Positions 21,897-59,483 of a stretch of 64,000 nucleotides of DNA are shown in pieces. Origin of the DNA: Trichoplax sp. H2 (Eukaryota); NCBI GenBank assembly GCA_003344405.1, contig NOWV01000118.1, positions 1 to 64,000 of the forward strand. The letters run 5' to 3'. The notes below the pieces were generated by a model. The model was not told the origin of the DNA. It made no database searches and saw nothing but the letters and a program-made list of their open reading frames with translations. Within the stretch, counting starts at the first letter, position 1; every line of letters begins with the position of its first letter. Made by a program: the position numbers and the translations under genes.

Positions 21897-22997
21897 ATGA
21901 GTTTATACTCGTACAACAACTCTACTGAATTAGGTAATGGTACTCAAAGTGAAAATAACGTATCAAATGCTGGCCAATATATTATTTCTTCAGCTTATGT
22001 ACTTATAGCTGTCGTCTCAGTTGTATCCAATTCAATGTTTTGCATCATCCTTTACAAGAAGAAATCACCAACTGCAAAAGCTACTGAATATCTGTTTCTG
22101 AATTTAGCTGCTACTGATATGCTGAGCGGTATATTACTGATTGTTGTACCGGGTTTTGTTATACCAATACCCGATTATCCAATCCCTCATGTTGGCCTTG
22201 AATTATTTTGTCGCTTGATTTGGTCAAATGCACTATTTTTTATGCTAGGTTTTATCTCAGTATGGACATTATTAGCTATCTGTGTCGATCGATGGTTTGC
22301 CATTGCTATGCCGTTTTCTTATAAGGAAATTTGTACGAAGAGAAAAGCGTTAATCACTATCATAATAATATGGATCGCTAATATTGGGCTTGCCATGGAT
22401 AATTTCCTAGATAGAACTGCTGGTCCTAATGGTACGAAATGTGTATTTTTTATATGGGTAAACCCCGCCGATAAAGCAGCCGTTGTAACAGCGCTCCAAG
22501 TCGTTCGTATATTTATACCAAGTCTCCTTATTGCGGTTGTTTATCTAGATATTGGACGTCGAATACTTCATTCTAGCTATCGAAAAAAGGTACGAGTTGA
22601 ACCCCCCAAAAATACTATTATTCGCAGTTCTCAACGTGATGCGCTTATTCGCAAACAAGTAACAGTCATGAGTTTTATAGCTGCCGTTGTTTTCTTAATT
22701 TGTTGGTTACCGAATGAAATTTATTACACCATGGCAATACACGATCCAAGATTGTTTAAAAATATTACAATTCGTCGTATTACTAAATTATTGACAGGAC
22801 TTAATTCAACTCTAAATCCATTAATCTATGCAATCTCCAACAAATATTATCGTGAGGGATTTATAGAATTACTCCGTTGTCGAATAACTGTTACTTTAAA
22901 TCGAGTTTCGATACTACCGTCATCATTTGCTAATAATTCACACATTAATACTGTCGTAAAGGCATGGGAAAAAGAAAGTGACTTTACGTTATCATAA
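21897..22997 (+). CDS. Intronless rhodopsin-class GPCR, paralogue of 12977-14020
   Basis: Same motifs (NLAATD, GLELFCRL, DRW, RIFIPSL, CWLPNEI, NPLIYA) and obviously collinear with the first receptor. Confidence 0.95.
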   Translation: MSLYSYNNSTELGNGTQSENNVSNAGQYIISSAYVLIAVVSVVSNSMFCIILYKKKSPTAKATEYLFLNLAATDMLSGILLIVVPGFVIPIPDYPIPHVGLELFCRLIWSNALFFMLGFISVWTLLAICVDRWFAIAMPFSYKEICTKRKALITIIIIWIANIGLAMDNFLDRTAGPNGTKCVFFIWVNPADKAAVVTALQVVRIFIPSLLIAVVYLDIGRRILHSSYRKKVRVEPPKNTIIRSSQRDALIRKQVTVMSFIAAVVFLICWLPNEIYYTMAIHDPRLFKNITIRRITKLLTGLNSTLNPLIYAISNKYYREGFIELLRCRITVTLNRVSILPSSFANNSHINTVVKAWEKESDFTLS

Positions 22998-25847
22998 TAT
23001 TCATAATGCAAGATCATCTCCTTATAAGTAAAAATTATTAATAGTGACTCATTATTAATTAGTGGAATTATGGAATGCACTATGAGTACACAATTGCCAT
23101 CTTTAGCTATTAAGACTATATTCTTTAAGCTCTAAGAGTGATGGAGAAGATTTGCCGAAACTTTATTAAGGTGTTGACGTCATGAAAATAATACAACGCA
23201 ATGGTTTTTCCTTTCTCATCCTTACATTCTAAGTGGCAATGACATAAAAATGAAAATCAACTCAATTTAGTAAAACGTTCAGTTTTATTACGCTATTGAG
23301 GTATAATATTAAATATGCGAATTTCAACGATTATTACTTTCGCCAGAGATTACTCTGTTTAATTTATTTTATTCTGCTTGTGATATATCTTTATAACTTT
23401 GTTTCTCCCTCCCTTTCTTGCACATATCCGCTTATCCTCTATATCAATACATAATTCTAATTAGAGTTCAACAGTGATATTGAACCCTTAATAATATGCA
23501 TTGTAAGACTTAGAAAAGTAAGCGGGTTATGTTTTCTATATCCATTTAATTGTTGACTGTTATAAGAATGAATTACTTAAAAGCTATTTATTGTTATCAT
23601 GCGATTGATTATTATAGTTAATTTTAACAATATCATGCTAGTAATCTAATCATATCGTTCTTGCTAAGCTATTTTCACTTTCTTTTATAATCTTTAACCT
23701 ATTCTTACAGATTGATGGGTGTTCAAATAGATGCTGATTTACCATTAATAACTTTAATAGTTTTAGTCAAGTATACGTATGCTCATAGATTAAAAGTTCA
23801 TTATTATCTACCTACTAACGTACTTTTTCTCTCTTTGTCTCTTCCCGGAGCCTAGCCGGTATGCCGTATAAATTATTTTAAGGCTGTTTCGATGTTTCAT
23901 CCTTAACTGTAATGGCATAGTAATATAAGGAAGCGTATACTTTACAATTAATAAAACATGGATAAATTATCATCTTACCACTCATTACTTATTTAAAGAA
24001 TATAAAACTGTCAATAATAAATGTTCTATTGAATATATCATTCTATAGTTTACAAGTTACTGTTATATATTGTATCTACAGCTATATGCCTTATTTTATC
24101 ATCTATAAGCTGTAAATATAACTTCTATATTATTGTTTTGGTGGATTTATAGTACTAACTAAAGTCTTTACTAGTGTTCCTATAAATAATTAATAATTAA
24201 TATTAGCATGGTGTTATGGTCTGTCGTATTATTCTGATAACTAATTGTTAATAATATAACTAACGTAATATTCTATTCCATGAAATTTTTCTTATACATT
24301 ATCAATAATAAGTTTGTTATGATTAGAAATAGTTTTGCCTGTCCTTTATTATACCATGTAAACAGTCATATAAATATCTTGAAATCTGACAAATCAAGTC
24401 ATTTCGATGCATTATTTGATGAAGCATCCGCTACAAAACAGAAAAGTCGAACGGATACTGAAAATATGCACGTCGGAAATAGGTTTTTACTTGGTTTAGC
24501 GTACCGGTATCCAAGTAATATATCATATAACTGATTTTCTACGCAGATAATTTAAAAAAATCAGATATTCCTAACGGGTTATAATTTCACATTTGCCCGT
24601 ATTAAATAATTTCTTGTTCTCAAATTATTGATTGGTTATCCAGAATTGAATAAATTGATTATTTATGCCAGATTCTGCTGTTTTCGCAATTATTGTACAC
24701 TCTACAGCAGCATAAGTTATCTATTGCCAAGCTCATTCTATTTCTAGTTTTTTTCCATCCTATTATATTTAGGTATGGTTTTCAATTTTGAATTTAATTT
24801 ACAAAATTCTTTTAATTCACAATTACTAAGCATACTCGTATTCATTTTCTAATACAAAGCCATTCTACTGTATTTTACCATGACACTAATTTACAGAAGC
24901 GTTTATGTGACTCATACAATGCATAGATATATATTATTTTCTCTTCAACTTCCTTCGCTACTACTTGAATCATCAATGTCGTCACGCTTATTAATTGCTA
25001 GTATCATCTCCAATTAGATTATCATGATATTTATGTTATTTTCTTTACAAGTCCCTTCACGACTACTTAAATCGTCAGTATCGTCAAGCTTAAAATAATC
25101 CCTACTATCATTTCCGACTAGGTTATCATACTAAATATATTATTTTCTCCACAACTTCCTTCGCTATTACTTAAATCATCAATATCATCACGCTTATTAG
25201 TCGCTAGTATCATTCCCAATTAGGCTATCATGCTGTATATATTATTTTACCCACGGCTTCCTTCGCTATTACTTGAATTCGTAAATATCGATACACCGTA
25301 TAGTGTCTAATTACGTTATCATACTGTATATATTATTTTCTCCACAACCTCCTTCGCCATTACTTGAATCATCAATATCGTCACAGTTATTAATTACTAG
25401 TATCATATCTTATTAGGCTATTGTACTATATATGCTATTTCTGCTCAATTTCCTTCACTATTACTTAAATCATCAATATCGTCACGCAGTATCATCTCCG
25501 ATTAAGTTAACATACCGGTACTATATAGATAACTTTCTCTACAAATTCTTTCGATATTACTTGAATCATCAATATCGCCACGCTTATTTTATTCGTTAGT
25601 ATCATCTCCAGTTAGGCTATCATACTATATAAATTATTTTTTCCATAAATTCCTTCTCTTTAACCATAAATATATTACTTTCTTCACAACTTTCTTCGCT
25701 ATTACTTATGACATTAATATTGCCACGTAGTATCATCTTCGATTAAGTTTTTATATTGAATATACTAATTTCTCCTTAATTTCCTTCGCGATTTCTTAAA
25801 TCATTCATATTATCACGCAGTATCACCTCCAATTAGTTTATCATACT

Positions 25848-26299
25848 TGTAGTGTATTTAGAGTATACTGTAACTATATTCTACTCTTAAATATAGACAT
25901 GTTGCATTGCTCTTATATTTAAACATCTTCAGTCCGCTTACTTCACATTCATATATAGGCTACTGTATTTAGTTATCACGGTACTCGCCGTTTGCTATAA
26001 TCATCAGCTATGTTGTAACCTGTTATGGTATATGTAGTATCTAATTCTACAATCCTATTCTCTGCATATGCTCTATCTTTAAACTATAAATACCGCCGTT
26101 TTCCACCTCAGAAATCGTTAGTTTCCTGGTTAATTTTCACACGTTACGCACGACAGCTTGCACGCAGGTCTACCGTAACCACCTCACTATGCTTACTTTA
26201 CTACTTAAAATAAAGTATAACTTTTATACAACTTTTGGTGTACTAATTGTAAATGGCAACTATATCTCAATCCTCCGAGATATCGAAGCCTCCATCACA
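25848..26299. mobile_element. Solo-LTR-like element, family D (452 bp), inserted in the tandem array
   Basis: tgtagtgt...ccatcaca termini; TSD atact (25843-25847 / 26300-26304); the array resumes afterwards. Confidence 0.8.
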
Positions 26300-26630
26300 A
26301 TACTATACCTGTATATATTGTTTTCTTCACAACTTTCTTCACTATTACTTAGACAACAATATAGCCATACAGTATCATCTCCGATTAGGTTATCAAACTA
26401 TATATATTATTTTTTCCACAACTTCCTTCGCTACTACTTAGATTATCAATATCGCCATGTAGTATCATCTAAGATAAGGTTATCGTACTATATATTATTT
26501 CCTCCACAATTTTCTTCGTAATTACTTAAATTATTAATATCGTCACGCTTATTAATCGCTAGTATTATCTCTGATTAAGTTATCATACTAAATACATTAT
26601 TTTCTCCACAACTTTCTTCGCTATTACTTA

Positions 26631-27179
26631 GATATATACCAATTACGAGATTCCAAATTTTAGAAAAATAAGGGCTTTATTGAATCTTATACAAAGATTA
26701 ACTACACATAGCTCTACTCTAGCCGAATACTACTACTAAAGACTTCTACAACGAACTAACAGAATAATCTAAAGTTGCATGCTTTTATACTTTTCGTAGC
26801 ATTCGCAGCTGCAATCCGCATAGCAACCTTTTACCTTATATTACACATAGTTAAATTATTCTTAGTAAGACTATTCTACTGCGGACCATCATTAATCCAA
26901 TATGGATACGACTACAGTACTTACGTAGACATCATTCACACTAGCCAAAGTACAATGAATTAACCATATCCTAATATATGATTTACAGTTCTATTTTTAC
27001 CTATAGCCTTATTAGTAACTCAACAGCTTACTGTACATAGTCATCTGTACTCTAACATAGAGTCTCTACCACTACAGTCTATAGTTATAGCTACCAAATA
27101 TCTCTTAGGATAAATATCTACCATACATTATACTAAACATGGCTAACTGTCTACAATCACTATACTAAGTTACATTACA
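26631..27179. mobile_element. Family A copy in opposite orientation, inserted in the tandem array
   Basis: Reverse complement of 11242-11793; ttaga on both sides, with the terminal tgt lost at the left junction. Confidence 0.88.
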
Positions 27180-28399
27180 TTAGATCATCAATATCTTTTC
27201 GCTTATTAATCGCTAGTACTATGTCCGATTAGGTTATCATTCTATATTCGTATAAATGATTCTCTCTATAACTTACTTCATTACTTAAATTATAAATATT
27301 GTCACGCTTATTAATCAATAGTATTTATCTCTGATTAGGTTATCATACTAAATGCATTATTTTCTCCACAACTTCTTTCGCTATTACTTAAATCATCAAT
27401 ATCGCTACGCTAATTAATCGCTAGTATTATCTCCGATTAGGTTATCATTTTATATATATTATTTTCTTCATAATTTCCTTCATTACTTTTATTATAATTA
27501 ATATTATCATGCTTATAAATCACTAGTACAGCATCATCTCTGATAAGGTTATCATACTAAATATATTATTTTCTCCACAACTTCCTTCGTTATTAAATCG
27601 TCAAATATCGTCGCGTTTTATTAATCGTTAGTATCTCCGATTAGCTTATCACACTATCTATATATAACATATGTTATATACTATTTTCCCCACAAATTCC
27701 TTAGTTATTACTTAAATCGTCAGTATCATCATGCCTATTAATCGCTAGTATCTTCTCTAGTTAAGTTATCGCCTTTATTTGCTTATCAGAATTTGAAATT
27801 TTTTTAAGAGAAAAAGAGCTTTCTTTTATTTCAACTCGTAACCCAAGCAAAGCCATGCACTGCTTCTGCTACCTTTTTTACAACTAGACTTTCGGCTTAT
27901 GGAAGTTGATACTAAGACAGTGCGACAAATTCTGATCCTTTCTTATTAAGTTTTTTAGATAACAAATCTCATCCTTACAAGATATTATAAAAAAGATTGA
28001 TTAATTTTTATAGTCTACCTCTTGCATTTTAATCATCAATCAATCTAACTTATTAAACCTACAGTTTGGAATTCACTTCTTACTGCTTAGTTTACGATCA
28101 TAACATTCATCTTCATGATAGAATCAGTTCCAAGGATATTTAACTTTATTTACTTTACTCCATTGAAAATTAGTCATATTCACTCTAAATTCGCTCTCAA
28201 ATACAGTAGACCTATATCAATCATTTCTATCTACTAAGAAATTAGAATGATCCAAATTGCTATTATTAATGTAATGACAGTTATTTGTAATCGTATTCAC
28301 AGCAGACAAACACAAATGAATAACTTTGACCTTCCTGTATTAATAGTTAATTACATATGATTATTATTATCGTCACGTAAAAGGATGAGTTCTTGATCC

Positions 28400-37051: not shown

Positions 37052-40000
37052 TTAACTGCTAATCCATTTCTTTATCAATTTAGCTTCCATTTTCCTTGCT
37101 TTAATAACAGATGCAGGGTCATTTTTATTTTTACCTCTAATAGTATTCAATAAAAATATAAAAGTAAGTAAGTGAAAATTTTTACTACTTACACGAACAT
37201 CCTCATAATAGCTGTATAATATCTTTACCTGAGATCCAGATGATGAGCTCCGTGGGGAATCTGGATAGCGACTAGGCTAGATGATGGGGACTTTAAGATC
37301 TATGATCATACAAACGTACAAAAGAATCGACGGTTTACAACATTATCCCAAATATCTAGACAGGACTATTTTCAAGCTACTGGCCATACAAGATTATTCT
37401 GATAAAATTGAAGCATAACACGATTTGCATTTAATGGTATCAGTAAGAGTAAATATCAAAATTATGAGTCTCTAAAGTAATTGAAGATGTTGCGAATAAT
37501 ATACTTAATTATTGTTTATATAGTATAATACTTACGCCGCCATTCTTCCATGGATCCAGATTTCCATTCGAGAAGATAATATTGCTCGCTCCTTTTAGTC
37601 CTGAATTCAGAGAGTATTCATTATCAAATTTCAAATAGATTTGTTTATGAACTCGAGCAAATTACTAAATGCTATTTGGAATACTAAAGAAGAAAGTAAG
37701 CTCAATCCAAAGATCTTACGGTTTGCCCAAAATTGAGTTGCAACCCAGTTAGGCCTTGGCGTGACGCCATACTTTTTAAGGCAATACTGCTTTCTTATTT
37801 TGGATGTAAAGGGTATCGGTGGAAACATGTCAGTTTTATTATTTGTACTACCAGGAAGAAGGATTTCAGTGCAAGCCTAGATAGAGTGAACATCAAATTG
37901 CAAAATCATTAAGAATTTGTCTTATTTACTAAACTGAAATGTAGCATAGCATATTTCGAAGCAAGTCTAACATTACCTGATAATCCCAAGGTATAGCAGA
38001 GGCACCTGTTCCGCATCCTGTTGGGTCTGCACAGTGCACGTACTGTTTGTAGATATCATGACATTTTTTGCTTCCATAAAAAAGCTCTTATGTGATAAAT
38101 AAACCATTACAAGAGATTTGTAAGTTGATCGAAAGTCATGGTCTATTTCTACAAGCTAGTAAAGTTAAGAATTGTACAGGACTTTGCAAATTTACTTACT
38201 CATAGCTTTAGCCATTCCTTGTATAGGGTGGCTAGCATTTACTATATATTTGCAGGAAGCCTACATTGAATAAAACAAACTACGATGTTATCCTAATAGT
38301 TGGATTGATTCTTTCATTATTGAGTTGAATACTGCTTAGAAGGCAGCTATGCTATAGGTTTCATACATTAACAGGAAATGCAGGAAGTGGACCAAAAAAG
38401 GATGCTGGATAAGGGTAATCTCCCATAGCCATGGAAACAAAACCGTTTCGAATCCATCCAATTAATTGTTTAACCTAACGCATTTGAATCGATTCGATAT
38501 TATGAAAGTTTGTATAATTCAAGCATTTTAGTCAAGTATGATTTGCAAGATACTGTTACTATAGGAATGACTAACATCAGCAGAGGTCTTCAGCTTGTTG
38601 CAGACATTGAAAATTTTAGCGACTTTTTGCTTACCTAGTAATATTCGTTTACCAAATCAGTAATGCATTCGTAGACAATCACTATATCCAATATCAATTA
38701 CTACTCTTACCACTTTTGGACTTTGCCATTTCTAGCACAGCGCTAAATGCTTTTCGGATATTAGGAACACATTTAGGATTCGCATCTTGGTAATCCTATA
38801 GAAAAATTACTGTAATTTTAGTCAAATCTGCGTATAGTTATTAAATTTAGCAACAATCCTTTTTTACGATAATAAATCGCTGCACAGTCGCCATAAAATG
38901 CAAATGATTAGCGTCTAAACGGGGTAAATAAGAATAAACACGGACAAATTGCCTAACTATTTTTTATGTGGAGAGACACTATACACGCTATGATTTCTTA
39001 TTGTGGTAACAAGTAATCTATCGTAGAGGTTTAAGATCGTTACTGTTTCTAGTAATGGAAATATTTATTTCGAAGTTTTGCATACACGTTAACCTTATAA
39101 TAATGGCGATCTAGATAATCGGAATCAACTTGATATCGCAATTTATTCTACAGAGATAAAATGTGAAAACTATTTTGCTGTATAGTATTTATCGAGAAGA
39201 TAAAGTTCAGGGTAGTACTACTGCGCTGTATCAGTATGGTCAAATTATTTACTATTCAATATACTGAATAATATATGAAGTTTTTACTTGGACCGACAAC
39301 TTTTTAAAAGCATTATACTATACATAGTTTACATTTATCGGATTATTAATCATTGGCCAATACGATACATTAGTTCTATTTCTTGCTAAAGATACCTTGG
39401 TTACTGCTGGAAAGAAGAAGTTTGGGGAAACAACTCCACCTGCCATGTAAAGTGGAGCGCTCGCGGCTAGTCCAGCATCAATAATGTTAGGGTATTTCAG
39501 TCTCATCCAAGCAGTTAACATTCCACCATAACTGCCTCCGAAAGCGACAACTTTGCATTTATTAGCATTTAATGATTTCTTTAGGCTAGTCAAGAGGACA
39601 GCGTAGTCAGCTAAGGCTTGCTCTGATGTTAACAATCCTAGATTCTTTGGTTTGAAGGAATCCTTTCCAAATGGCAGAGATTTCCCGTAATAGCGCTTGA
39701 GAAAAGTGTATAATGCTTATTACATAAGTCAATAATATAGTACGAATGTACAAAGGAATAACACAAAGTTATGATGTACATAAGCTACATTAAATTATTT
39801 TACTCAATAGTACGTATATGACCTAAATTTTCTCCAATTTTAATGATCATTATGGTTTTTAAAGTATCATTTAGAGCTACTTAGGTCTGGCTTTAGATGC
39901 TAAGGAGCTATCTCTACTGTTATAACAGTATAGGTTTGATTGAATAACTAAAGCGTGACATACTGCTTCGCAACTGGAAGTACAAGCAACTTTAAAAAGC

Positions 40001-41793: not shown

Positions 41794-42947
41794 TAGGTTA
41801 TATTAATTAATCCCGCAGCATGAGTCCTATATTGCTAGAGCGTAGAGCTTTCATTCTCTAGAGGTTCGGGATTGTGGAGGTCCATGACGATGCCTAGATT
41901 TTGTCTTCCACGAGAATGTCATGTGATCATGCTTGGTACTAAAGAACCATAATGGAAATAGTTGGAAGACGAAGAGTGGCTATGGATGTTTTGAGAGGCC
42001 ATTTTAGAAAGTGATTGAGTACGCTATTTGCCTGCTTGAATAGAAACGAAATTGTTGCAACTGTATGAGCAGACGACTTGATAAAGTGAATCTACTTAGT
42101 ATTTATTTTACTTGTACTACCTCAACATCGATTGATTTATTGTCATGTTAGTAGTTTACAGCAAAACCGCCTTTACCCTCTGAGAAAACCATTTACAGTA
42201 TACAGTACACAGAATGAGTAATCGAGTATGCAATAGGTAGACTCTGTGCTCTAGCATCTTTCACTGCCTCCTCCATCAATATCGAGTTGTTACCTTACGT
42301 ATATCGACTGTTTACCTTAATACAAATTTTCGACACTGATCTATACTAATAATTATAATTATCGATGCTACTCTTCGTTATGTTCTCTATCGCGACCCTA
42401 GGTCAATCATGCAATACTCGGTTAGACACTGCAAAGTAGCTTAATGCGTGGAGTCCACTTCTTTATTCTGGGTTGCCTTTCCCACAAGTGATATAAATAT
42501 ATATTACATACATATTAGTAAATTACTAGTGAACGTATCAATACAGCTACGGTATTAGTATTAAACGATTATCTTCTCAGTTAGGCAGCTATGCAATATG
42601 TCTGCCCTAATTCCTAGACATTACCAGTCTATCTATCATACATAACACGCTTATGCAAAGCTGTTTTATAAATATTGCACTGCAAATTCTTTCATTCCTG
42701 TACCAGTTTTCACCGAACCAAAACCCTCTGCAAGCTTCTGAGTTGACTGCCAGACCGACTTCCTGACATACTGTACAGTATAGTGCTGCAGAGGACAATC
42801 CTAGATTCTAACATATTCTAGTCGAGATACAGTACTATACGTAGGGCCGTCATGGACCACAAGTACTTACTTGATATGGACATGATGCCATGCATCGGTA
42901 GGTATCCTTAATACTGTGCTCGACGGTAGTCTGCATCATCATCATCA

Positions 42948-45345
42948 ATGCAACCAAGTTTCAACATGTCGCTAGAAATGCAAGCTAATAAAGTCCTCCA
43001 AGAGTTGCCAGCTTCTGACGATAAGTTAGTTGTTCTTCATCGACTAAATGTTATTGTAAAACAAATGAATGAAAATGAAGTCACAGATCTGGTGCACCAT
43101 CATCGATTAGATAACCTCATTCAATGCCTATCAATCAACGATAGTATTATTGTTGGAGAATGTGTGCAAATATTACAAACGCTTTTCAATCAATCTCCGA
43201 TCGATTTCACTTTTCATCAATATAAACAGCCATTAATGCTTGGCATTCTGCATGAAATGAGCTGTGTACGTGAATTATCCCTATCTTGCCATATTGCTAC
43301 AATAAAAGTAGGCTATAGTGATCCAGTGAAGGATTTTGTTAAACTCGTTATCAATCAAGGGATATCAAATGATCTTGTCAATGTGGCATCATTTTCTATC
43401 AAGTCCTTACTTGCCATAGCGCGTTGTGAGAGTGACGGACTTGAATTAATCTTTAATGAAGAAGTTATATCCGATATTCAAAGATTAGATTGGGATAACG
43501 ATACTTTAAGATTTCGAATTTATGAATTATTCATTAATATCTTATCTATATCACATCGAGCGATGACACTGTCAATGAATACTGGTATCTTAAATAAATT
43601 GATGCATGAATTAGAAAGTGATGATCCGCTCTTAAGGATGAATTGCATTGAATTCTTGATTCAGTTACAGCAAACAACTTTTGGCTGGCATTATCTTCAA
43701 AGTTTCAATATTTTATACACTCTAAATAAACTACTTGTCGACTCAGCGAACGACCCACTATCATCATTTATAGTACCAAGTGAGTATGTAATCGTATCAT
43801 CGTATCGTATTAATCATAATATTGCTACAATGATAAAATACGTTTGTTGTTTGAATATTTCCATTGCTTAAATACAGGATGAATAATTGAACAATATGCT
43901 TGTATACTTCCAGTATCTTAATTGTAAATCTGCAGTTATTTTATTTTACTACAGACCATATCACTGTGATAATTGTATTTTAAAATGTACATGTTATTTG
44001 TAGGATGATAATAGATTTGTACGGTTATAATTATTATAGCTTAAAAAGTAAGTTTAGACAATCAAATTCGTTTAAAGTTGTTGACCATTATTCATCAATC
44101 ACATAGCATACACTTGGGATACTATGACTAGTGCAGGATCTTAAGTGTACATGTTTGTGTACTAAAATAAATGCATCACATGCCTCAAGGATTAAATTCA
44201 TCTATGATATGGGAATTATTGAACATTTTACTACTTTTTCATTTGACTTTTAAAACAGGAATATTGGTATTCTATGGTCACTTAACTCACTCCTCAAGTA
44301 CCGTAAATTTTATCGAAGTGAATGAAAAATATCCAACTTTCATGGAAGTCACAGTGTCTTCCATCTTATCTAGAGATCAAAGTATATTAAATATCGCTCT
44401 CGATACTTTCGGAGCCATTGCTTCGTGCAATCAAGGGCGTCAGTCCTTATTAAGTATATGCAAAGAACAACAAATCCATAAGGTCATGAGCAGAATAGGC
44501 GAAATAGTTACTACCGAAAACACTTCCACCCGTTTACGAGCTCTGGATGCCTTATCTGAAATTTATCGTAATTTTCCAGATGAAGTACGCCACTGTGCCT
44601 GTAAGTATAATGGGTCTTTTGTAAAAACTGGTTTTAATAGATTATTTTAATTTAGTTTTATAATATATCTGGAGCTAGCGATACTAATGATGATGACACG
44701 AAATAAACTAAGTACTGTAAGAGACATAGTATGAAATGTAATTGTAAGATGTTTGTTCCGTAACTGAAATATTTATATCATTCACAAATGTGGTACTCTT
44801 ACAGTAAATTGAGTAGAAAAATGATCAGTTTGACACCTGTATCTTTACCTATAGCTTAATCCTTTACTGAAAGCGATTACAGCCTGTAGCGCAGTCATTT
44901 ACCACGATCTTAGTCCTGCTGTTGTAAGACTTAAACAAGATTTTGTTTTACGCGATATAAAGTAGAGTTGACTTTTTTAGGTCTTCAAGACTGGTACGAT
45001 GCATTAAATCCTTCCGTTGCTTCAATGCTACAAAAGTTAAGCAATCAACCATTTCCAGATATTCGATGTGCCGCTCTAAAATTATTAGCAAATTTAGCAC
45101 AATTTGAGTGGACACAAAGAGATATTAGTCGTCAGCCGGGCATGATTGAATTCATATTAGATCGCAAAGTTGAGCAAGACAAATCCTGCTTAGAGGCCAA
45201 ATTTGACATTGTTGTTGTATTAACTGAATCTAAATATGCGATTGAGGTCTTTGGTGGCTCTATGTATGTAGAATTGCAGCAACATGTAAAAGAGGGTCCT
45301 TTCTTTGTTCTTGGAGAAGCAAACGTAGCCATGGAAGCAGAATAA
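42948..45345 (+). CDS. PSMD5: 26S proteasome assembly chaperone S5b / non-ATPase regulatory subunit 5
   Basis: ARM/HEAT-like protein with DTLRFRIYEL, ELESDDPLLRMNCIE, ALDTFGAIASCNQG, QPFPDIRCAALK, PGMIEFILDR, VKEGPFFV...VAMEAE*. Exons 42948-43779, 44259-44584, a probable micro-exon at 44817-44838, and 44981-45345. Confidence 0.88.
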
Positions 45346-51100: not shown

Positions 51101-52751
51101 AAAGTTAGCAGTGTTAACTATAATCATTTCACCAAAACATGTTACATAGGCTTTATCGATGTCATAACCGTAAAAGTAGCAAGACACATATCGGTTTGAA
51201 TCGTTGGATTTCGTAGGAGAAAACCTCGATTCATCCATGAACTATAAAAGGTAGCAGTGTTAACTATAATCATTTCACCAAAACATGTTACATAGGCTTT
51301 ATCGATGTCATAACGGTAAAAGTAGCAAGACACATATCGATTTGAATCGTTGGATCTAGTAGGAGAAAACCTCGATTTCATCTATTCCTGGAGAAAACCT
51401 CGATTCATCCATTAACTATGAAAAGTTAGCAGTGTTAACTATAATCATTTCACCAAAACATGTTACATAGGCTTTATCGATGTCATAACCGTAAAAGTAG
51501 CAAGACACATATCGGTTTGAATCGTTGGATCTAGTAGGAGAAAACCTCGATTTCATCTATTTTTTCCTTCCCCCCCCCCCCAAAAAAAAAGCACGAGATG
51601 CCGGTCACACTACGCACCAGTGCACGTCCACTCGTAGTGTCTACAGTACGGGTAATGTACCCGGAACCGTGCTAGAGAGCAGTACAAATGACTTTTTCTA
51701 TACATGCAGTACAGTACTGCTGTGAAGAGGGGCACACCAAGACGATGATGAACGTGACCCATACCAATGATATTGTGTACAAAACATCATGGTGATTTGG
51801 ATAGTGTAGTGTATAGTACATATCAACATTTGCTAGCGACACTATGACGTTGGAAGTTGTTTACTGATATTGTACAGAATAACATATTCCATGTCCGACA
51901 GAAAAATGTCATGGAGGTGCTCTTCTCCTTCAAGATGAATTTCTAGTTAGAAAACTTACCTCAAAGCAACTGCCACGCACAAGTAACTGAATAGCACGAC
52001 CAATGGATGTATTGGAAATATTTTTCGATTCTTCTTTAAAACGTCCATCTAACTGATGGATGAGGTAGGCGGTCAAAGTTTTTCTGGATATTCTTTCCCC
52101 TTCATTCATGATATTGTATAATAAACGCATAATCATTTCTTGCAATTTGGGTCCAAAAAGTTGACACTTGAGAGAACGCAAAGCAGCAAATAACTCATTG
52201 ACTTGTTGTTGTCTACTCTTCATTAGTAAAATGAGTTCTAACAAAATTCTTTCGCCTAGTTTTCGAATATACTTGATAATATCTTTCCTACCCAATTCTT
52301 CAAGTAGCTGACAACTTGCCAAAGAAATTAATTTACGCTCTAAAGATTTCGCCAAGTTGATCGGTTTGACTTGGTTATTAATTTTCTTGAAAGCATTGGG
52401 ATTTAGCACACAAACTAATTTTTCCATCAAAATCATGGATTGATAATATTCAATGCCATGATTTGAAATCATCGTTTCGTATGCGTTAGCCGGTACAGCC
52501 ACTTCAATCAAGTATAATATACATGTGTTGGGAGGCAGCGTTCTGACCGATATCGCCGACTTATAATTGTCAACAGGACAGCAGTCATCTTCGATTGAAG
52601 CCAAACAGTTGGAACAAATTGTATGCCCACAGCCAAACGTGTACGGTGCTGAACTGTTCCAGTCGCCAAATTTTTTACGGCAAAAACTACAACGAATAAG
52701 AAAATTTCTGATCAAGGTATGAGTGGTTCCTTTACTTCCTTTCTCTTCCAT
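48117..52751 (-). CDS. Roquin-like RING + ROQ/HEPN protein (RC3H family), apparently without CCCH finger
   Basis: RING CSFC...CGHTICSNC...CPVD (Asp at the last ligand, as in Roquin). ROQ motifs SCQLLEELGR, RKLGERILLEL, LFAALRSLKCQLFGP, SRKTL, TSIGRAIQLLVRGSCFEV. Exons 51960-~52751, 50835-50882 (VIPRDKGGSLLKLKDE), 49224-49376 (...WSLILYG...SMIDK), 48960-49092, 48699-48781, ~48406-48452, 48117-48327. An alternative last exon at ~47907-47951 is possible. Confidence 0.88.
50938..51556. repeat. Young tandem repeat, 147-bp unit, 4 copies, in the Roquin-like first coding intron
   Basis: Units start at 50941, 51088, 51235 and 51409; near-identical; followed by C and A homopolymer tracts. Confidence 0.97.
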
Positions 52752-52899
52752 GTTTCTCCTTGGTAATTTGGTCAAGTATGACGAAGGAGGCGGACTGCTC
52801 CCCAAAAATGAGCACGATTTGAATTCCTGATCCAAGTAAAATAGGAGAACAAGTTTTGATCAGCAGTTTGGATCAAGATTACCGCCTAAGACCTAGAAG

Positions 52900-54493: not shown

Positions 54494-57400
54494 ATGGATA
54501 ACCTACTCCATCAAGATACAGAAGAGGTCGAGACTGTGCTCACCAACAGAAATGAGCATGGTGATCTATTAGTTTTTGGTAGCGTCACTAGGTATAGTCA
54601 TCTTGAACGGAATATTGATGATGCAATTCATGCTGCATTCTTATGTTATTATCCTTGATTACTGACGACACCGTGTCGTAAGATGGATATCTTGTAAACA
54701 ACTATGGGTTAGATTGAATATCTTGCTCAATTAGGTATCATTTTAAATCCAATGACTTTATTGTCGTATACGGTATAGGCGCTGTACGATCAAATTGATC
54801 ACCGGTAATACAGCAGTTCATTTTAACCCAATGGATAGCGTTAAAACACGCTATGGTAAATTTATTTATGGCGGTAAAACAATATTGCAACGGCAAAAAA
54901 AGAGCCTTAAATTACCACTGGACAATACATTGCTTAATATCCAGTAGTCTTGAATAACCAGTCATTCCTATCTCCAGCTACTTTAGTGATAGCTCAATAC
55001 TTTCCTAATCGATTGACTCATTTTGTCTCTGCTTATACTACGATAAATTGAAATCGCCATTTTAAAATAAATCTACAATACAACAGCCAAGAGAATTGTT
55101 CAATTTACTGTCATCTTCGATGCATACAACCTGAGGATATTGAATATTTTGCTACAGATTAATCATTTTTTCTTACAATTCATAGGGATTTGTTAATACT
55201 CTTTGACGATTTCAGCCATGGAAGTCAACAAATTTATAGAGATGACATTAAAAAAGCCTTCAATTCTATCCAGTTATATCCTTCTACAGCTCAAGGTGCA
55301 GTTTTACCTTTTTCAATGTGCATGAATTGATATTGTTCGCGATAACTTATTTTTTGCTAGTCAATACTGCAATTAAATTACATCAAATATGGCATATGTT
55401 GGCGTTGACTCATTTTACCATCGCTATGGCAGGCAGTAATATTATAATCATACTGTACGCGTGTATCAATGTAGCTTTAACAGCTGCATACTCTGCAACC
55501 AGATTGATAACTATTCGTGTAATTGTTTCAAATCGAAAGCAAATTCTCGAGAAAGATGATCAAAACGCGCTCAGATATCAAAATTACAGTAGTATAATCG
55601 CCTTTCATGAAATTCCTGGAATAGTGTAGCTATCAATGCTATGAAATACTCTAATTTTTAAATTATGAATTCATAATAACTACCTAAAGATAACTCATGT
55701 TTTTTCTACCGCAAAGTACAAATATCGGTTACAAAAAATCTTACGATACGACAGTTTTACCTACTGTTTCTTTGGTATTATGAAGATTCCACACTAAATG
55801 ACTTCAAGTTACATCGATATTCTACCATTACTAAAAAAATGAAACTATAATTGATTGCTTTGTACAATGTGACGAGAATGCGGTAGCATTTAATAATGGA
55901 AACATAAATGATGTAGCAAATTTTATGTACTCCCCTTACTTTAACCTACAATGTTATGATGCAGAAATTATAGTCAGTGATATTGCTTTAGAACAAAATT
56001 TTACCGTTAAATAGTAATCTTAGAATTACTTTTAATTTCTTACTAACGGACTTTGTTCATTAAATTGCGTAGTTGAAGAGATGTTATTGTCTGCTCATGA
56101 ATGTTGCCAGAATACCGATCTTAATAGTTTAACATTTGGTCAGTTTGCATTTTTTGCATCCTTACTGAAGAAAGAATATCAGGAAAGAAAGTTAGTCAAT
56201 TTGTACACTCACTTATTAATATAAATTCTCTTATATTTTCATATCTGTATACTTTAGTAATTTATCTATTTCTAATTGATAGTTCCCATTTATTTTACAG
56301 CACTATAATTTAAACTTTTGATTAAATATATCGGAACTATCTGAATTGGTAATTAATACTGTATCAATTTGGATAGTTCCGATATTATTTATTTTCCGGT
56401 ATTAGCCATAAGATGCTATAGTGTATATATATATATAGAATAAACATTATATCGTAATTGCATTCGAATATACTCCTATATTACAATATTCGTCGAAACT
56501 GCACTAGATAAAATCACAGGATATTCGGTTTATATATAAACTTTAGCTTTTCTGCTCGTTATTGTAGTATAACATTTGCTAATAAAGAAGGAAGCTTAAT
56601 TGTAAATCGAAAGCATAGCCCAAGAACAAGTAAGACTGCATTACCTGTGATCGTCAATCGTAGTATACTCGAGTCTAGGATACAAATCTTGCCATCAGCA
56701 CTTTTTGCTTTAGTAATTATTTTTAATGATGTTATTTCACTTTTAGATCACCCGAATGTTCAAGGTACCATAATGATGCTAATTTATCAAGACTGCATAC
56801 TGTACTAATTATTATCCATTTAATACTATAATGTAACAATGCACAACCTTATGTTGTATCCTTTATGGATATTATTGGAGTAGTGTTTCTTGGGGGAGCA
56901 TGCAACCCAACGACATGGAGGAAAGAAATTGCTATACCAATACTTAAAGATCATTGTATTACTTACTTTAACCCGGTAGGTCTTTCATTTTTATAATATC
57001 TTGCAATGTATGTTGTGCTATTGTAAAAGTTTATAAGCCATCGAGTTTTATTTTAAAATAATTACTCTTTCCTCTATTCCTTTGCCATGATACCGAGTAG
57101 CAAGTTGAAGAATGGTTTCCGGCATTGATAGAAGTAGAAGAACAAGCAAAACAGGTTCTTACTCACAGTCAATAACTAATTGAGGCAATTTTAATAACTC
57201 TTACTACTAGCAATTATCAATACACTTTATTCTGTAGATGATTAATACTTCAAGGATCTATTTTACATATTAATCTATATCTTGATTACATTTTTGGTAT
57301 AGACTGCAGAATTACTTCTCTTTGTAATTGAGGAATCGACAAGAGGGTTGTCTTCAATGGTGGAAGCAGCTTATGTAGCCGGTAAAATTGTATTTGCTTG

Positions 57401-59483
57401 CTTTATGTCGTCTCAGTGTAATTTTATTAAAATCAGTATTGCTAGCCTGATAAATTTATATTGTATTTTTATGTTTGTCATTTCCAGGCAGTGGTGGGCC
57501 GCTCATATTAGTTCTTAGAGAATTGCCTGAAACCGAAACAGCCATAGCTGGCGAGACACTTTCAGCTAGGTGATTATTTTTAGGACTTTTATTAACTTTA
57601 GAGTGATGCTATTTACTTATACGGGACACACACTTCAATAGTGAGAAGGAAGACCTTAATCGTGGTCGAAAATTTTTGAGAGATACGGTTGAAAGAGTGG
57701 ATATTCCAGTATTTACTGATATAGAAACTGCAATTCACTGTTGTGCTAAGGTTATGAATAAAAATTAATTATCAAAACTTACTATATATAATTATATATA
57801 AAGATGTAAGGCTAATTGGAATAGATACTTTGTTAACATATATGTCAAAGTTATTTCCAATTTGGTAACTAAACAGCGACGCTTCTTATTCAGGTTATTA
57901 AAGTTGGAACCAAGATTACCAACTTAACGACCGATGATGGCGCTCAGCCAGTTAGACTCGCGGATATATCTGTAGATGATAGTTTTATGTAAGTCACCTT
58001 ATATAACTCTTGAGTTACGAAGTATGATTGTTATGATTAGTGAGCCCCCAAATTTATCATTAAAAGTGATGGGTTGGATTTGTTATACTTTACTTTACTT
58101 TTTCATTAGAGCTGCCAAGGAAAAATATGATGACTACAATTCTGGTGGTTCGGGAAAGTTAACACTTAATGAGGTCGGTATTACGCTGATGAACTGAAAC
58201 CGTGAAATACCTCTTCCTAATTTAAAATATTTAAATTTTAGGTTGCTCTAGCCTACAAAGCTTTTAGTGGAAAGGCGTTATCGCAGGATAATGTAGAAAT
58301 GTTGTCGGGCTTGTATGAAAGCGATCCTTCTAAGATTAGAATGTCGTTCGAAGAATTTTGCTGCTTACTAACAGAAATGCTTTCAGACGTAATAATATAT
58401 ATTTTATTTAGATGTAAAAATTTTTAATCTAAGTCGCTAACTTTGAATTGTGTCTATGTCTAACTCGGGACATTTTGGATTATACAGCAACCGCAGTTAA
58501 ATTATCTGAATTCTCTATTTAATATTGTTAGCGGCACAACTACAAATTTTATAAGTAAGATCGATATTTGTACAACATGTGCTCTGTAGAGCATTTGCTT
58601 TAACTTTGTCGTATTGTCTTTCAAATGACTTACAAAGAGGATGATCTGTTTAGATTGGTTGTTTAATGGTGGTCCAGACATTTTACATGAAAAGGATGAA
58701 TCGGTTTTCGAACGCGATATATTTCTTGGTGGCAGCTGTGGTCGATCAACATGGAGAGAAGATGTAGCTATTCCGTTGCTAAAGTAAATCTACCGTGAAT
58801 TTTGTAATTTGTAGGCATGTATCTTATTGTTTTGATAGTCGATTATGAGAATTTTTATCGTCTTTTATGAATTTTTTACAGGAAACAGGCAATTTCCTAT
58901 TTTAATCCGCAATTACCTGACTGGTCGATGAAATTTCTTGGTATTGAGGCTGAAGCAAAAAAACATTCGAGACTTTTGCTATACTTTATCGGGAATGAGA
59001 GTCGATGTGTTGCGTCGATGGTTGAGGTAGCCGAAAAGTTTGAAATTTTAACAAGCCTTATGTTTGTGCAGTATGAGAGTAACGTGTTGTGACAATTATT
59101 GTATTGTTTTATTAGATCGCTTACTATATCGGCTTGGGTAGGAATGTTGTTCTCTGTATTCAAAATTTTACCGACGGAAACCTTCTAGATGGAGTTACAG
59201 TGCGTAAAATAATGTATTGAATATCTAGTAACAGAACAAAAATTTTTGAATGCAACAAGTATTTTCTTATGTAGTACGAGTACACATTTAGGTGCTAGGT
59301 AAATGATATATCTGACTTAATTTCTAGGTTACTGGTAGAAGTTTACTTGACTACAACCGAGCAAGGAGTTATTTATCAGATATTGCAAATCGTGCATCGA
59401 TCCCTGTGTTCGATGATATTACTGAGGCTATTATGAGTGCAATTCAAGAAATCAAATTATCAAGCCGAGAAAGCGAGACCTAA
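54494..59483 (+). CDS. raw: Raw/OLRN-1 family protein: 2 x (EF-hand-like pair + nucleoside 2-deoxyribosyltransferase-like domain), ~20 exons
   Basis: Repeat 1: VFLGGACNPTTWRKEIAIPILKDHCITYFNP|QVEEW...LLFVIEESTRGLSSMVEAAY...DLNRGRKFLRD...IPVFTDI (56884-57750). Repeat 2: DIFLGGSCGRSTWREDVAIPLLKKQAISYFNPQLPDW...ESRCVASMVEIAYYIGLGRNVVLC...DYNRARSYLSD...IPVFDDI (58715-59430). EF-hand-like segments at 55186-56190 and 58110-58388. Stop at 59481-59483. Confidence 0.88.

What the first reader, a model, noticed from the sequence alone, without database searches (positions are those of the whole stretch)
54494..59483. Raw-family protein as a candidate Ca2+-linked nucleotide glycosidase: 2x(EF-hand-like + NDT-like) with the putative catalytic Glu in both halves
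Seen: an internally duplicated protein spread over ~20 small exons and invisible to the ORF track. Each half has a degenerate EF-hand-like pair (e.g. YNSGGSGKLTLNE...MSFEEFC) followed by FLGG.C...W...FNPQ...S.VE.AY. Known: Drosophila Raw and C. elegans OLRN-1 are signalling regulators (JNK/p38, axon degeneration) with, to my knowledge, no defined biochemistry. NDT-superfamily enzymes use a Glu nucleophile and share a flavodoxin-like fold with TIR NADases. Inference: SSMVE and ASMVE hold that Glu, so this may be a calcium-modulated N-glycosidase signalling enzyme present in an early-branching, probably neuron-less animal.
Basis: partly seen in the sequence, partly recalled or inferred. Interest (0 to 1): 0.75.

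Follow-up and report, generated by a model that had tools for sequence, protein, structure and literature searches.

The report
Placozoan Raw-family cADPR hydrolase gene
This is the Trichoplax copy of the Raw/OLRN-1 gene, an enzyme family shown in 2026 to destroy the messenger cyclic ADP-ribose, and it unusually keeps a full second set of catalytic residues.

Summary
Window 54494-59483 (+) encodes Trichoplax sp. H2 protein TrispH2_009332, which has two EF-hand-like pairs and two NDT-like domains (Pfam PF15891, 134 bits). RNA contigs support 18 GT..AG exons and a 569-aa product. The deposited 608-aa model keeps one 117-nt intron.

The core inference, a nucleotide N-glycosidase with a catalytic Glu, is right but no longer new. 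Chen et al. (June 2026, PMC13455253) showed that Drosophila Raw and C. elegans OLRN-1 are cADPR-specific hydrolases. They do not hydrolyse NAD. Catalysis needs two Glu in domain 1 and an Arg and Tyr in domain 2. All eight published pocket residues are present here with identical spacing, and the signature is intact in 108 of 120 homologs.

Two points go beyond that paper's main text. First, Trichoplax also keeps the complete reciprocal set: domain-2 F/C/E/E plus domain-1 D/R/F/D. Only 20 of 120 homologs do, including 0 of 34 arthropods and 0 of 18 molluscs. Second, the paper's "dimerization domains" are EF-hand pairs.

The calcium link is weak in Trichoplax. Three loops lack ligands and the fourth has Asn at position 1 and Gly at position 3.

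Verdict: a new member of a known kind, of moderate interest.

The parts
54494..59483 (+). Coding span of the Trichoplax sp. H2 Raw ortholog (TrispH2_009332), ATG to TAA
   Evidence: P0003 maps exactly. The RNA-supported model has 18 exons and 569 aa.
54494..54591 (+). exon 1 (start codon)
   Evidence: Joint 54591>55186 GT..AG in 3 of 4 runs. Contigs begin at 54418.
55186..55295 (+). exon 2 (first EF-hand-like motif of DD1)
   Evidence: Joints seen in 4 of 4 runs; model checked.
56073..56190 (+). exon 3 (second EF-hand-like motif of DD1)
   Evidence: 4 of 4 runs
56568..56629 (+). exon 4 (linker). The deposited P0003 model reads on through the next intron.
   Evidence: The joint leaving 56629 is seen in 4 of 4 runs.
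56630..56746 (+). 117-nt in-frame intron retained in the deposited model. It accounts for most of P0003 residues 130-169, which the RNA-supported model replaces with a single Asn.
   Evidence: RNA contigs skip it in 4 of 4 runs. It has no counterpart in the 19 orthologs displayed. pLDDT is 42-54.
56747..56764 (+). 18-nt micro-exon
   Evidence: 16 letters lie between the two sides of joint 56629>56882 in 4 of 4 runs (table 5c). The GT..AG frame was checked.
56884..56975 (+). exon 6: FLGGAC...YFNP; F176 (56886-56888), C181 (56901-56903)
57101..57154 (+). exon 7: holds E218 (57137-57139), the counterpart of Raw E396. The T. adhaerens model P0004 skips this exon.
   Evidence: Both flanking joints are seen in 3 of 4 runs. 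E218 is E in 119 of 120 homologs.
57303..57381 (+). exon 8: SSMVE; E244 (57363-57365), the counterpart of Raw E422
   Evidence: E in 120 of 120 homologs
57488..57569 (+). exon 9
57642..57750 (+). exon 10: domain-1 helix with D281, R284, F288 and D291 (57652-57684), the half of the reciprocal site contributed by domain 1
57894..57988 (+). exon 11 (end of NDT-like domain 1, start of DD2)
58110..58173 (+). exon 12: first EF loop of DD2, N355-E366 (58138-58173)
58242..58388 (+). exon 13: second EF-hand of DD2 (...MSFEEFC)
58488..58554 (+). exon 14 (linker helix)
58654..58783 (+). exon 15: FLGGSC; F461 (58722-58724), C466 (58737-58739)
58882..59026 (+). exon 16: E503 (58946-58948) and ASMVE E529 (59024-59026)
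59116..59199 (+). exon 17
59328..59483 (+). exon 18: D565, R568, Y572 and D575 (59349-59381), the counterparts of Raw D946, R949, Y953 and D956; stop codon
   Evidence: PMC13455253 sections 5 and 7

Best explanation
The gene is the placozoan ortholog of Drosophila Raw and C. elegans OLRN-1. It most likely encodes a cytosolic cyclic-ADP-ribose (cADPR) hydrolase. The protein is a tandem duplication of one module: an EF-hand-like helical pair (the 'DD' domains of the 2026 paper) followed by an NDT/TIR-like Rossmann-type domain. By analogy with Raw, the two NDT-like domains pack against each other. They form a composite pocket in which E218 and E244 of domain 1 act on the ribose-adenine N-glycosidic bond, while R568 and Y572 on a domain-2 helix hold the pyrophosphate and the substrate. 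The product is ADP-ribose. Shown here: orthology, architecture, transcription and splicing, conservation of all eight pocket residues, and the fold. Inferred from orthologs: the substrate and the catalytic roles. Inferred from conservation only: a second, reciprocal pocket may also be functional, built from E503 and E529 of domain 2 with R284 and F288 of domain 1.
For: Orthology: 162 homologs at E<=1e-3, 120 listed. Many are named 'raw' or 'NDT-like domain-containing protein raw'.

Architecture: PF15891 occurs twice. The internal repeat gives hhalign E 1.1e-58 for the NDT-like halves and 6.5e-11 for the EF-hand-like halves. The AF2 model has mean pLDDT 84.5 and pTM 0.83, with four ordered domains.

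Published biochemistry (PMC13455253; abstract and sections 5, 6, 7, 11, 12 read): Raw hydrolyses cADPR to ADPR with Km about 20 nM and does not hydrolyse NAD. Substitution of E396 or E422, and the mutations R949C and Y953N, abolish activity. OLRN-1 is also active. The conserved residues are F354, C359, E396, E422 and D946, R949, Y953, D956.

Mapping: Trichoplax F176, C181, E218, E244 and D565, R568, Y572, D575 have the same residue types and the same spacings (5, 37, 26 and 3, 4, 3). The eight-residue signature is intact in 108 of 120 homologs, and most of the other 12 have gaps at those columns. In a second set, 70 of the 71 sequences that aligned at all 16 positions keep both Glu plus D, R and Y.

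Fold: the best PDB matches are NDT-like proteins (4mcj Z 13.2, rmsd 2.5, 124 aligned; YtoQ Z 12.1). Next come NDTs, MilB and RCL (Z 9.2-10.6) and TIR domains (Z 8.3-10.0).

Expression: spliced contigs appear in 4 runs from 3 studies.
Against: No activity was measured for the Trichoplax protein. Substrate specificity may differ at about 36% identity to insect Raw.

Drosophila Raw itself was not retrieved, so the residue mapping rests on the paper's residue numbers, on spacing and on insect 'raw' orthologs.

pTM 0.83 is only indirect support.

Whether Trichoplax has a cADPR-producing SARM1 or ADP-ribosyl cyclase could not be checked, because no genome is held.

At sequence level no Pfam TIR family is matched (0 of 80 members at E<=1e-3), so the paper's 'TIR' label rests on fold rather than on profiles.
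Confidence: 0.8

Rival explanations
1. One reading: a calcium-modulated glycosidase, in which Ca2+ binding to the EF-hand-like pairs switches the catalytic domains.
For: DD2 is homologous to EF-hand pairs. The family profile hits calcineurin B, CaBP1 and calmodulin, with a best single-stretch i-Evalue of 8.3e-6. 29 of 80 homologs match EF-hand_7, 27 match EF-hand_6 and 10 match EF-hand_1 at E<=1e-3. In the first DD2 loop the family has Asp at position 1 in 79 of 120, Gly at position 6 in 93 of 120, and Asp or Glu at position 12 in 100 of 120. The paper states that Raw's regulation is unknown.
Against: In Trichoplax the only candidate loop reads N1, G3, S5, E12. The other three loops have F, S or Q at position 1, as read. 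Only 16 of the 100 twelve-residue loops fit a strict canonical pattern. Pfam EF-hand_7 scores 23.6 bits in P0003, below the cut-off of 30. Raw behaved as constitutively active in vitro.
Confidence: 0.15
2. Same fold and same catalytic Glu pair, but a different physiological substrate in Trichoplax. Candidates are NAD+, 2'- or 3'-cADPR isomers, or a nucleoside monophosphate as for DNPH1 and MilB. The two pockets could also have different substrates.
For: The nearest structures are nucleoside/nucleotide N-glycosidases and transferases. The second pocket has F288 where the first has Y572. Identity to the assayed orthologs' lineage is only about 36%.
Against: All eight residues of the assayed pocket are identical in type. 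Fly Raw and nematode OLRN-1, which are very distant from each other, share cADPR specificity.
Confidence: 0.12
3. A non-enzymatic scaffold or regulator of JNK/p38 signalling, which was the view of Raw/OLRN-1 before 2026.
For: The historical genetics of Raw and OLRN-1 (PMC2213652; title and abstract seen in the listing).
Against: E218 is E in 119 of 120 homologs and E244 in 120 of 120, and the Arg/Tyr pair is likewise near-invariant. Such conservation across animals is hard to explain without catalysis. Enzyme activity has been shown for two orthologs.
Confidence: 0.03

Closest known systems
Drosophila Raw / C. elegans OLRN-1 (Raw-type 'TIR-fold' cADPR hydrolase; Chen et al., Cell Commun Signal 2026, PMC13455253)
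   Same: Four-domain order DD1-cat1-DD2-cat2. All eight conserved pocket residues are present with identical spacing. High similarity to arthropod 'raw' orthologs.
   Different: The Trichoplax protein is much shorter (569 aa), without the long disordered loops described for Raw. It keeps the complete reciprocal residue set (FCEE + DRFD), which is degenerate in all 34 arthropod and 18 mollusc sequences examined. It comes from an animal without neurons. It has not been assayed.
Pfam PF15891 Nuc_deoxyri_tr2 proteins with solved structures (4mcj BDI_0649 of Parabacteroides distasonis; YtoQ 8of6)
   Same: Best fold matches: Z 13.2 and 12.1, about 124 residues aligned. The Pfam family is matched at 134 bits.
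   Different: Those proteins are single-domain bacterial proteins with no function that I could find (YtoQ literature). Here the domain is duplicated in tandem and fused to EF-hand-like pairs. phmmer of domain 1 against PDB sequences finds none of them.
Classical nucleoside 2'-deoxyribosyltransferases, DNPH1/RCL and MilB (PF05014 clan)
   Same: Same fold: 6evs Z 10.6, 6qai 10.2, 7o62 9.9, MilB 9.8, 1s2d 9.4, RCL 9.2. 7 of 80 homologs also match PF05014. As I recall, a Glu following the central strand is the nucleophile in NDTs.
   Different: P0003 itself does not match PF05014 at E<=1. The substrate of the Raw family is a cyclic dinucleotide-like messenger, not a deoxynucleoside. Equivalence of E244 with the NDT nucleophile could not be checked at residue level.
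SARM1 and other enzymatic TIR domains
   Same: Related flavodoxin-like fold: IL-1RAcPb TIR Z 10.0, TIR-1 Z 8.5, SARM1 TIR Z 8.3. Catalysis depends on Glu and acts on NAD-derived nucleotides.
   Different: No Pfam TIR match in 0 of 80 members. TIR matches rank below NDT-like ones. Raw does not cleave NAD.
EF-hand pair proteins (calcineurin B, CaBP1, calmodulin)
   Same: DD2 matches them at profile level. In the model both DD1 and DD2 have helix-loop-helix x2 topology with short bridging strands.
   Different: The Ca2+-ligand positions are largely lost in Trichoplax. The published role of these domains is positioning or dimerisation of the catalytic domains.

Membership tests
Raw/OLRN-1 cADPR hydrolase family | Four-domain order: helical domain, catalytic domain 1, helical domain, catalytic domain 2 | tested here: met
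   PF15891 in 2 stretches. hhalign of the halves gives E 1.1e-58 and 6.5e-11. The AF2 model has four ordered blocks.
Raw/OLRN-1 cADPR hydrolase family | Conserved domain-1 residues Phe, Cys, Glu, Glu (Raw F354, C359, E396, E422) | tested here: met
   F176, C181, E218 and E244 have the same spacing (5, 37, 26). They are conserved in 118, 118, 119 and 120 of 120 homologs.
Raw/OLRN-1 cADPR hydrolase family | Conserved domain-2 residues Asp, Arg, Tyr, Asp (Raw D946, R949, Y953, D956) | tested here: met
   D565, R568, Y572 and D575 have the same spacing (3, 4, 3). They are conserved in 116, 116, 116 and 112 of 120 homologs.
Raw/OLRN-1 cADPR hydrolase family | Full-length similarity to proteins named raw | tested here: met
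   Periplaneta 'raw' matches at 36% identity over 97% of the query, E 9.7e-109. Several other 'raw' and 'NDT-like domain-containing protein raw' hits follow.
Raw/OLRN-1 cADPR hydrolase family | cADPR-specific hydrolase activity without NAD hydrolysis | not testable with these tools
   This needs a biochemical assay. It has been shown only for Raw and OLRN-1.
Raw/OLRN-1 cADPR hydrolase family | Co-occurrence with a SARM1 ortholog in the same genome | not tested
   No genome is held for the window. The literature searches found nothing on placozoan SARM1.
Pfam PF15891 Nuc_deoxyri_tr2 | Score above the curated gathering cut-off | tested here: met
   134.1 bits against a cut-off of 30. 80 of 80 family members match.
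Classical NDT / DNPH1 (PF05014) | Profile match to PF05014 | tested here: not met
   PF05014 is not listed for P0003 at E<=1. Only 7 of 80 homologs match at E<=1e-3.
Classical NDT / DNPH1 (PF05014) | Catalytic Glu superposes on the NDT nucleophile | not testable with these tools
   Fold matches give aligned ranges only and no coordinates are returned. phmmer finds no NDT structure.
TIR domain (Pfam TIR families) | Profile match to a TIR family | tested here: not met
   No TIR family appears among the 7 families matched by any of the 80 members at E<=1e-3.
TIR domain (Pfam TIR families) | TIR-like fold | tested here: inconclusive
   Z is 8.3-10.0 to TIR structures, below the NDT-like matches and within the range of generic flavodoxin-like folds.
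Ca2+-binding EF-hand | Paired helix-loop-helix fold homologous to EF-hands | tested here: met
   The profile hits calcineurin B, CaBP1 and calmodulin at DD2. DD1 and DD2 align at 97.1% probability. The topology is seen in the model. EF-hand_7 in P0003 alone scores 23.6 bits, below the cut-off of 30.
Ca2+-binding EF-hand | Canonical 12-residue loop with ligands at positions 1, 3, 5 and 12 and Gly at position 6 | tested here: not met
   The best Trichoplax loop has N1, G3, S5, G6, E12. The other three loops lack ligands.

The most novel reading that the evidence does not exclude
The ancestral Raw enzyme had two sites, and Trichoplax still does. The tandem NDT-like domains would form a pseudo-symmetric pair with two complete composite pockets. 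One is the published pocket. The other is its mirror image: F461, C466, E503 and E529 of domain 2 with D281, R284, F288 and D291 of domain 1. The fly and nematode-type enzymes studied so far would then be half-degenerate derivatives. The second pocket could be a second catalytic site, or a regulatory nucleotide-binding site, which might explain how this otherwise 'constitutive' enzyme is controlled. A further possibility concerns lineages whose DD2 loop is canonical: there Ca2+ could act on the enzyme through the EF-hand pair, closing a feedback loop on a Ca2+-mobilising messenger.
Probability: 0.35. Interest if true: 0.55.

Novelty: new member of a known kind. Interest (0 to 1): 0.35.

Why it matters
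Raw/OLRN-1 is known from neurons, through its roles in axon degeneration and olfactory neuron fate. A fully intact, transcribed ortholog in a neuron-less placozoan, with relatives in sponges, indicates that enzymatic removal of cADPR is an old, general signalling function that neurons later adopted. The compact Trichoplax protein lacks the long disordered loops described for fly Raw. That makes it an attractive target for a first experimental structure. It is also a natural test case for whether the second, mirror-image pocket works, which fly Raw cannot answer because its second pocket is degenerate. The report also corrects both deposited gene models.

Tried and rejected
1. Whole-genome search for SARM1 or other TIR genes: no genome is held for this window. 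Co-occurrence with a cADPR producer therefore remains untested.

2. Literature on Trichoplax or placozoan SARM: there is no statement about a placozoan SARM1. One paper reports SARM1 in the sponge Amphimedon (passages in PMC3517549) and another reports it in choanoflagellates (passages in PMC6040629).

3. Foldseek with the whole 608-residue model: no match at E<=0.001. The top rows were spurious long alignments to RIG-I and MDA5 with TM about 0.1. Only domain-sized TIR and NDT hits had probability of 0.98 or more. VIA-align was more informative.

4. phmmer of NDT-like domain 1 against PDB sequences: only a chance hit, quinone oxidoreductase at E 1.5. The Glu could therefore not be aligned to an NDT nucleophile at residue level.

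5. Scan of prokaryote genomes for relatives: 43 pattern matches, none confirmed. This says nothing about the bacterial homologs that the paper reports.

6. The representative-library search gave family size only: 1607, 705 and 181 hits at E<=1e-3, 1e-10 and 1e-30. It carries no names, and the short hits may be fragments.

7. The hydrophobic stretch in P0003 residues 130-169 was considered as a membrane segment. It was rejected because it is a retained intron.

8. My first exon-boundary script gave a broken frame. It was corrected using the RNA joints.

9. Earlier findings of this scan: none for this genome.

10. YtoQ literature: nothing on its function.

11. Low-depth RNA contigs inside intron 2 (55222-56100) were not interpreted.


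Full report
**What is there**

The window is AT-rich eukaryotic DNA with 26-39% GC.

A 52-residue exon translation retrieved two database proteins:
- P0003: hypothetical protein TrispH2_009332 of Trichoplax sp. H2, 608 aa.
- P0004: TRIADDRAFT_53313 of T. adhaerens, 534 aa, called 'EF-hand domain-containing' by UniRef.

P0003 maps letter for letter onto the window in 17 blocks. 605 of 608 residues are matched, and the other three are split codons. The window is therefore Trichoplax sp. H2, a placozoan.

**Gene model**

Public RNA-type runs hold the exonic third of the locus. I laid contigs of four runs from three studies. They show 15 listed joints, all GT..AG apart from the one that spans the micro-exon, and one more that the tool did not display. 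Three points follow.

- First, the contigs leave exon 4 at 56629. They carry 16 further letters and re-enter at 56882 in 4 of 4 runs. This resolves into a 117-nt intron (56630-56746), an 18-nt micro-exon (56747-56764) and a 119-nt intron.
  - P0003 residues 130-169 are thus a retained in-frame intron, replaced by a single Asn.
  - That stretch has no counterpart in the 19 orthologs displayed and has pLDDT 42-54.
  - Its hydrophobic run is therefore not a membrane segment.
- Second, the 54-nt exon 57101-57154 is supported in 3 of 4 runs. The T. adhaerens model P0004 skips it and so loses a catalytic Glu.
- Third, the resulting model has 18 exons of 18-156 nt, all introns GT..AG, a 1710-nt CDS and 569 aa. 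It is identical to P0003 outside residues 130-169.

Residue numbers below follow P0003.

**Architecture**

Pfam finds PF15891 (Nuc_deoxyri_tr2, 'nucleoside 2-deoxyribosyltransferase like') at 134.1 bits against a cut-off of 30, in two stretches. It finds EF-hand_7 at 23.6 bits, below its cut-off of 30.

Profile-profile comparison of the two halves, sliced from a 120-sequence alignment, confirms the duplication:

| Halves compared | Probability | E-value | Identity |
|---|---|---|---|
| NDT-like domains | 100% | 1.1e-58 | 38% |
| Helical domains | 97.1% | 6.5e-11 | 9% |

An AlphaFold2 model built on 80 homologs has mean pLDDT 84.5 and pTM 0.83. It shows four ordered blocks:
- two helix-loop-helix pairs, each with short bridging strands (about residues 30-107 and 341-414);
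- two alpha/beta domains (about residues 172-317 and 455-607).

**Fold**

Foldseek with the whole model gave no match at E<=0.001. Only domain-sized hits had probability of 0.98 or more: plant TIR domains and the NDT-like 4mcj.

The exhaustive VIA-align search was clearer:

| PDB entry | Protein | Z |
|---|---|---|
| 4mcj | putative nucleoside deoxyribosyltransferase BDI_0649 | 13.2 (rmsd 2.5, 124 aligned) |
| 8of6 | YtoQ | 12.1 |
| 7m5h | conserved protein, Enterococcus faecalis | 11.0 |
| 6evs | NDT | 10.6 (on domain 1) |
| 6qai | NDT | 10.2 |
| 7fcc | IL-1RAcPb TIR | 10.0 |
| 7o62 | NDT | 9.9 |
| 4ohr | MilB | 9.8 |
| 9fqm, 5uzb | TIRAP, MAL TIR | 9.8 |
| 7beq | MyD88 TIR | 9.6 |
| 1s2d | NDT, ribosylated intermediate | 9.4 |
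| 2khz | RCL | 9.2 |
| 8p2m | C. elegans TIR-1 | 8.5 |
| 9hq0 | SARM1 TIR | 8.3 |

The repeated domain is thus closest to NDT-like proteins, and TIR domains are somewhat more distant relatives. At profile level, 80 of 80 homologs match PF15891, 7 of 80 also match classical PF05014, and none matches a TIR family.

**What is known**

A full-text search for OLRN-1 or 'Raw repeat' surfaced Chen et al., Cell Commun Signal, 4 June 2026 (PMC13455253). I read its abstract and sections 5, 6, 7, 11 and 12, and ran term searches in it. Its supplements were not visible. The paper reports the following.

- Raw is built as DD1-TIR1-DD2-TIR2.
- Recombinant Raw hydrolyses cADPR to ADPR (Km about 20 nM). It does not hydrolyse NAD, cGDPR or cIDPR.
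- Both catalytic domains are required.
- The conserved residues are F354, C359, E396, E422 (domain 1) and D946, R949, Y953, D956 (domain 2). Together they form one pocket at the domain interface.
- Substitution of E396 or E422, and the mutations R949C and Y953N, abolish activity.
- C. elegans OLRN-1 has the same activity.
- Raw co-occurs with SARM1 and is absent from vertebrates.

It has been in print since June 2026, with cADPR rather than NAD+ as substrate. A search for other papers on cADPR, dSarm and Raw found only this one with that content. No paper links OLRN-1 with 'deoxyribosyltransferase'. NCBI already names some insect orthologs 'NDT-like domain-containing protein raw'.

**Membership**

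The search for homologous proteins returned 162 relatives at E<=1e-3, of which 120 were listed. They come from arthropods (many named 'raw'), molluscs ('RAW'), annelids, a nemertean, echinoderms, a hemichordate, amphioxus and two sponges. The best matches are at 35-41% identity over more than 90% of the query.

In a MAFFT alignment of the 120:
- Trichoplax F176, C181, E218 and E244 are conserved in 118, 118, 119 and 120 of 120.
- D565, R568, Y572 and D575 are conserved in 116, 116, 116 and 112 of 120.

Their residue types and spacings (5, 37, 26 and 3, 4, 3) equal those of the published Raw residues. The eight-letter signature FCEEDRYD is intact in 108 of 120, and most of the other 12 have gaps at those columns.

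A second, independent set came from the 50%-identity representative library, which holds 1607, 705 and 181 hits at E<=1e-3, 1e-10 and 1e-30. Of its 137 new proteins, 71 aligned at all 16 positions, and 70 of those 71 keep both Glu plus D, R and Y.

I did not retrieve Drosophila Raw itself. The mapping rests on the paper's numbering and on insect orthologs.

**The Glu in both halves**

By the internal alignment, the mirror image of the published pocket would be F461, C466, E503, E529 (domain 2) with D281, R284, F288, D291 (domain 1). Trichoplax has all eight (FCEEDRFD). Only the Tyr differs, being Phe.

The full signature [FY]CEEDR[YF]D is present in 20 of 120 homologs:

| Group | Full mirror signature | Typical degenerate form |
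|---|---|---|
| Placozoa | 2 of 2 | - |
| Annelida | 4 of 4 | - |
| Hemichordata | 1 of 1 | - |
| Echinodermata | 3 of 8 | - |
| Unnamed sequences | 10 of 47 | - |
| Arthropoda | 0 of 34 | second Glu becomes L, M, V, I, T or Q; Arg mostly lost; Lepidoptera YFKLERTE |
| Mollusca | 0 of 18 | typically YCQEDR[VI]D |

All 21 named sequences from placozoans, sponges, annelids, a nemertean, echinoderms, a hemichordate and amphioxus keep Cys and both Glu in domain 2.

E529 is Glu in 71 of 120. In the second set the full mirror signature occurs in 4 of 71, and both Glu occur in 17 of 71.

The published pocket is therefore universal. The mirror set is ancestral-looking, has been lost repeatedly, and is retained in Trichoplax. 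The paper's main text has no occurrence of 'second pocket', 'symmetr', 'pseudo' or 'duplicat'. It lists only D, R, Y, D as conserved in domain 2.

Whether the mirror residues actually form a pocket could not be checked, because no coordinates are returned. This remains an inference from conservation and from the expectation that two homologous domains pack isologously.

**Calcium**

The helical 'dimerization domains' of the paper are EF-hand pairs.
- The family profile hits calcineurin B, CaBP1, calmodulin and centrin over DD2. The best whole-sequence E is 1.2e-13, for a calmodulin-calcineurin fusion chain (4il1), and the best single-stretch i-Evalue is 8.3e-6. The 60 chains shown, of 379 matched, are dominated by EF-hand proteins.
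- DD1 aligns to DD2.
- 29, 27 and 10 of 80 homologs match EF-hand_7, EF-hand_6 and EF-hand_1.
- The paper's main text never uses the word 'EF-hand'.

The model places the first DD2 loop at N355-E366, with L362 as the bridging position 8. Across the family this loop is often near-canonical:
- Asp at position 1 in 79 of 120;
- Gly at position 6 in 93 of 120;
- Asp or Glu at position 12 in 100 of 120;
- but a strict canonical pattern in only 16 of the 100 twelve-residue loops.

In Trichoplax the loop reads N-S-G-G-S-G-K-L-T-L-N-E. Position 1 is Asn and position 3 is Gly. The other three loops have Phe, Gln or Ser at position 1 and no ligand set, as read.

Calcium binding by the Trichoplax protein is therefore unlikely, about 15-20%. 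Calcium regulation in lineages with canonical loops remains an open idea, and the paper itself says that Raw's regulation is unknown.

**Mechanism proposed**

Shown here:
- an expressed, correctly spliced Raw ortholog;
- the full published catalytic signature;
- an NDT-like fold.

Inferred from the assayed orthologs: the two catalytic domains pack together. E218 and E244 engage the ribose and cleave the N1-glycosidic bond of cADPR. R568 and Y572, from the domain-2 helix, bind the pyrophosphate and substrate. The product is ADPR. The EF-hand-like pairs act as rigid spacers that orient the catalytic domains.

Inferred from conservation only: a second, mirror pocket may be active or regulatory.

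**Surroundings**

The neighbours look unrelated:
- two intronless rhodopsin-type GPCR ORFs;
- a peptidase S28 exon;
- a PSMD5-like gene;
- a Roquin-like RING-ROQ gene;
- arrays of a roughly 100-bp satellite.

**Verdict**

- This is a new member of a known kind.
- The residual novelty is the retained mirror-image catalytic set, the EF-hand identity of the 'DD' domains, and the two corrected gene models.

Noticed in passing
window 56630-56746 and 57101-57154: Both deposited gene models are wrong in one place each. The Trichoplax sp. H2 model (P0003) retains a 117-nt in-frame intron, which adds a spurious hydrophobic stretch. The T. adhaerens model (P0004) skips the 54-nt exon that carries the catalytic Glu E218.
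   Followed up: yes
window 55222-56100 (inside intron 2): Low-depth contigs from all four runs, laid on either strand, cover much of this 777-nt intron. A 125-aa hydrophobic stop-free frame lies at 55252-55629. This could be unspliced RNA, DNA carry-over or a separate transcript.
   Followed up: no
window 12902-14020 (+) and 21888-22997 (+): Two similar intronless ORFs (372 and 369 aa) match the rhodopsin-family 7TM receptor model PF00001 (E 3.4e-37 and 3.2e-33). They look like a tandem GPCR pair.
   Followed up: partly
window 24927-27663: Arrays of an 88-102-bp tandem repeat (3.5-7.3 copies, 70-75% matches; one of these arrays also scores as a 209-bp unit at 81%) coincide with the strongly negative GC skew at 24-28 kb.
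   Followed up: partly
window 39318-39716 (-), 42930-45345 (+), 51930-52859 (-): Exons of a serine carboxypeptidase S28-like gene (PF05577, E 1.8e-25), a proteasome PSMD5-like gene (PF10508, E 9e-29; tested only on the ORF at 42930-43868, the two downstream ORFs being assigned by position) and a Roquin-like RING + ROQ gene (PF21206, E 7.1e-36).
   Followed up: partly
window 2823-3983 (-): A 386-aa Ser-rich stop-free frame with no Pfam match.
   Followed up: partly
window 5343-5362: An assembly gap of 20 N.
   Followed up: no
homologs P0033, P0035, P0067, P0014, P0022: Several arthropod and annelid Raw orthologs carry a near-canonical EF-hand loop in DD2 (D-x-[DNST]-x-[ST]-G-x-[IL]-x-x-x-[DE]), unlike Trichoplax. 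The main text of the 2026 Raw paper does not mention EF-hands.
   Followed up: partly
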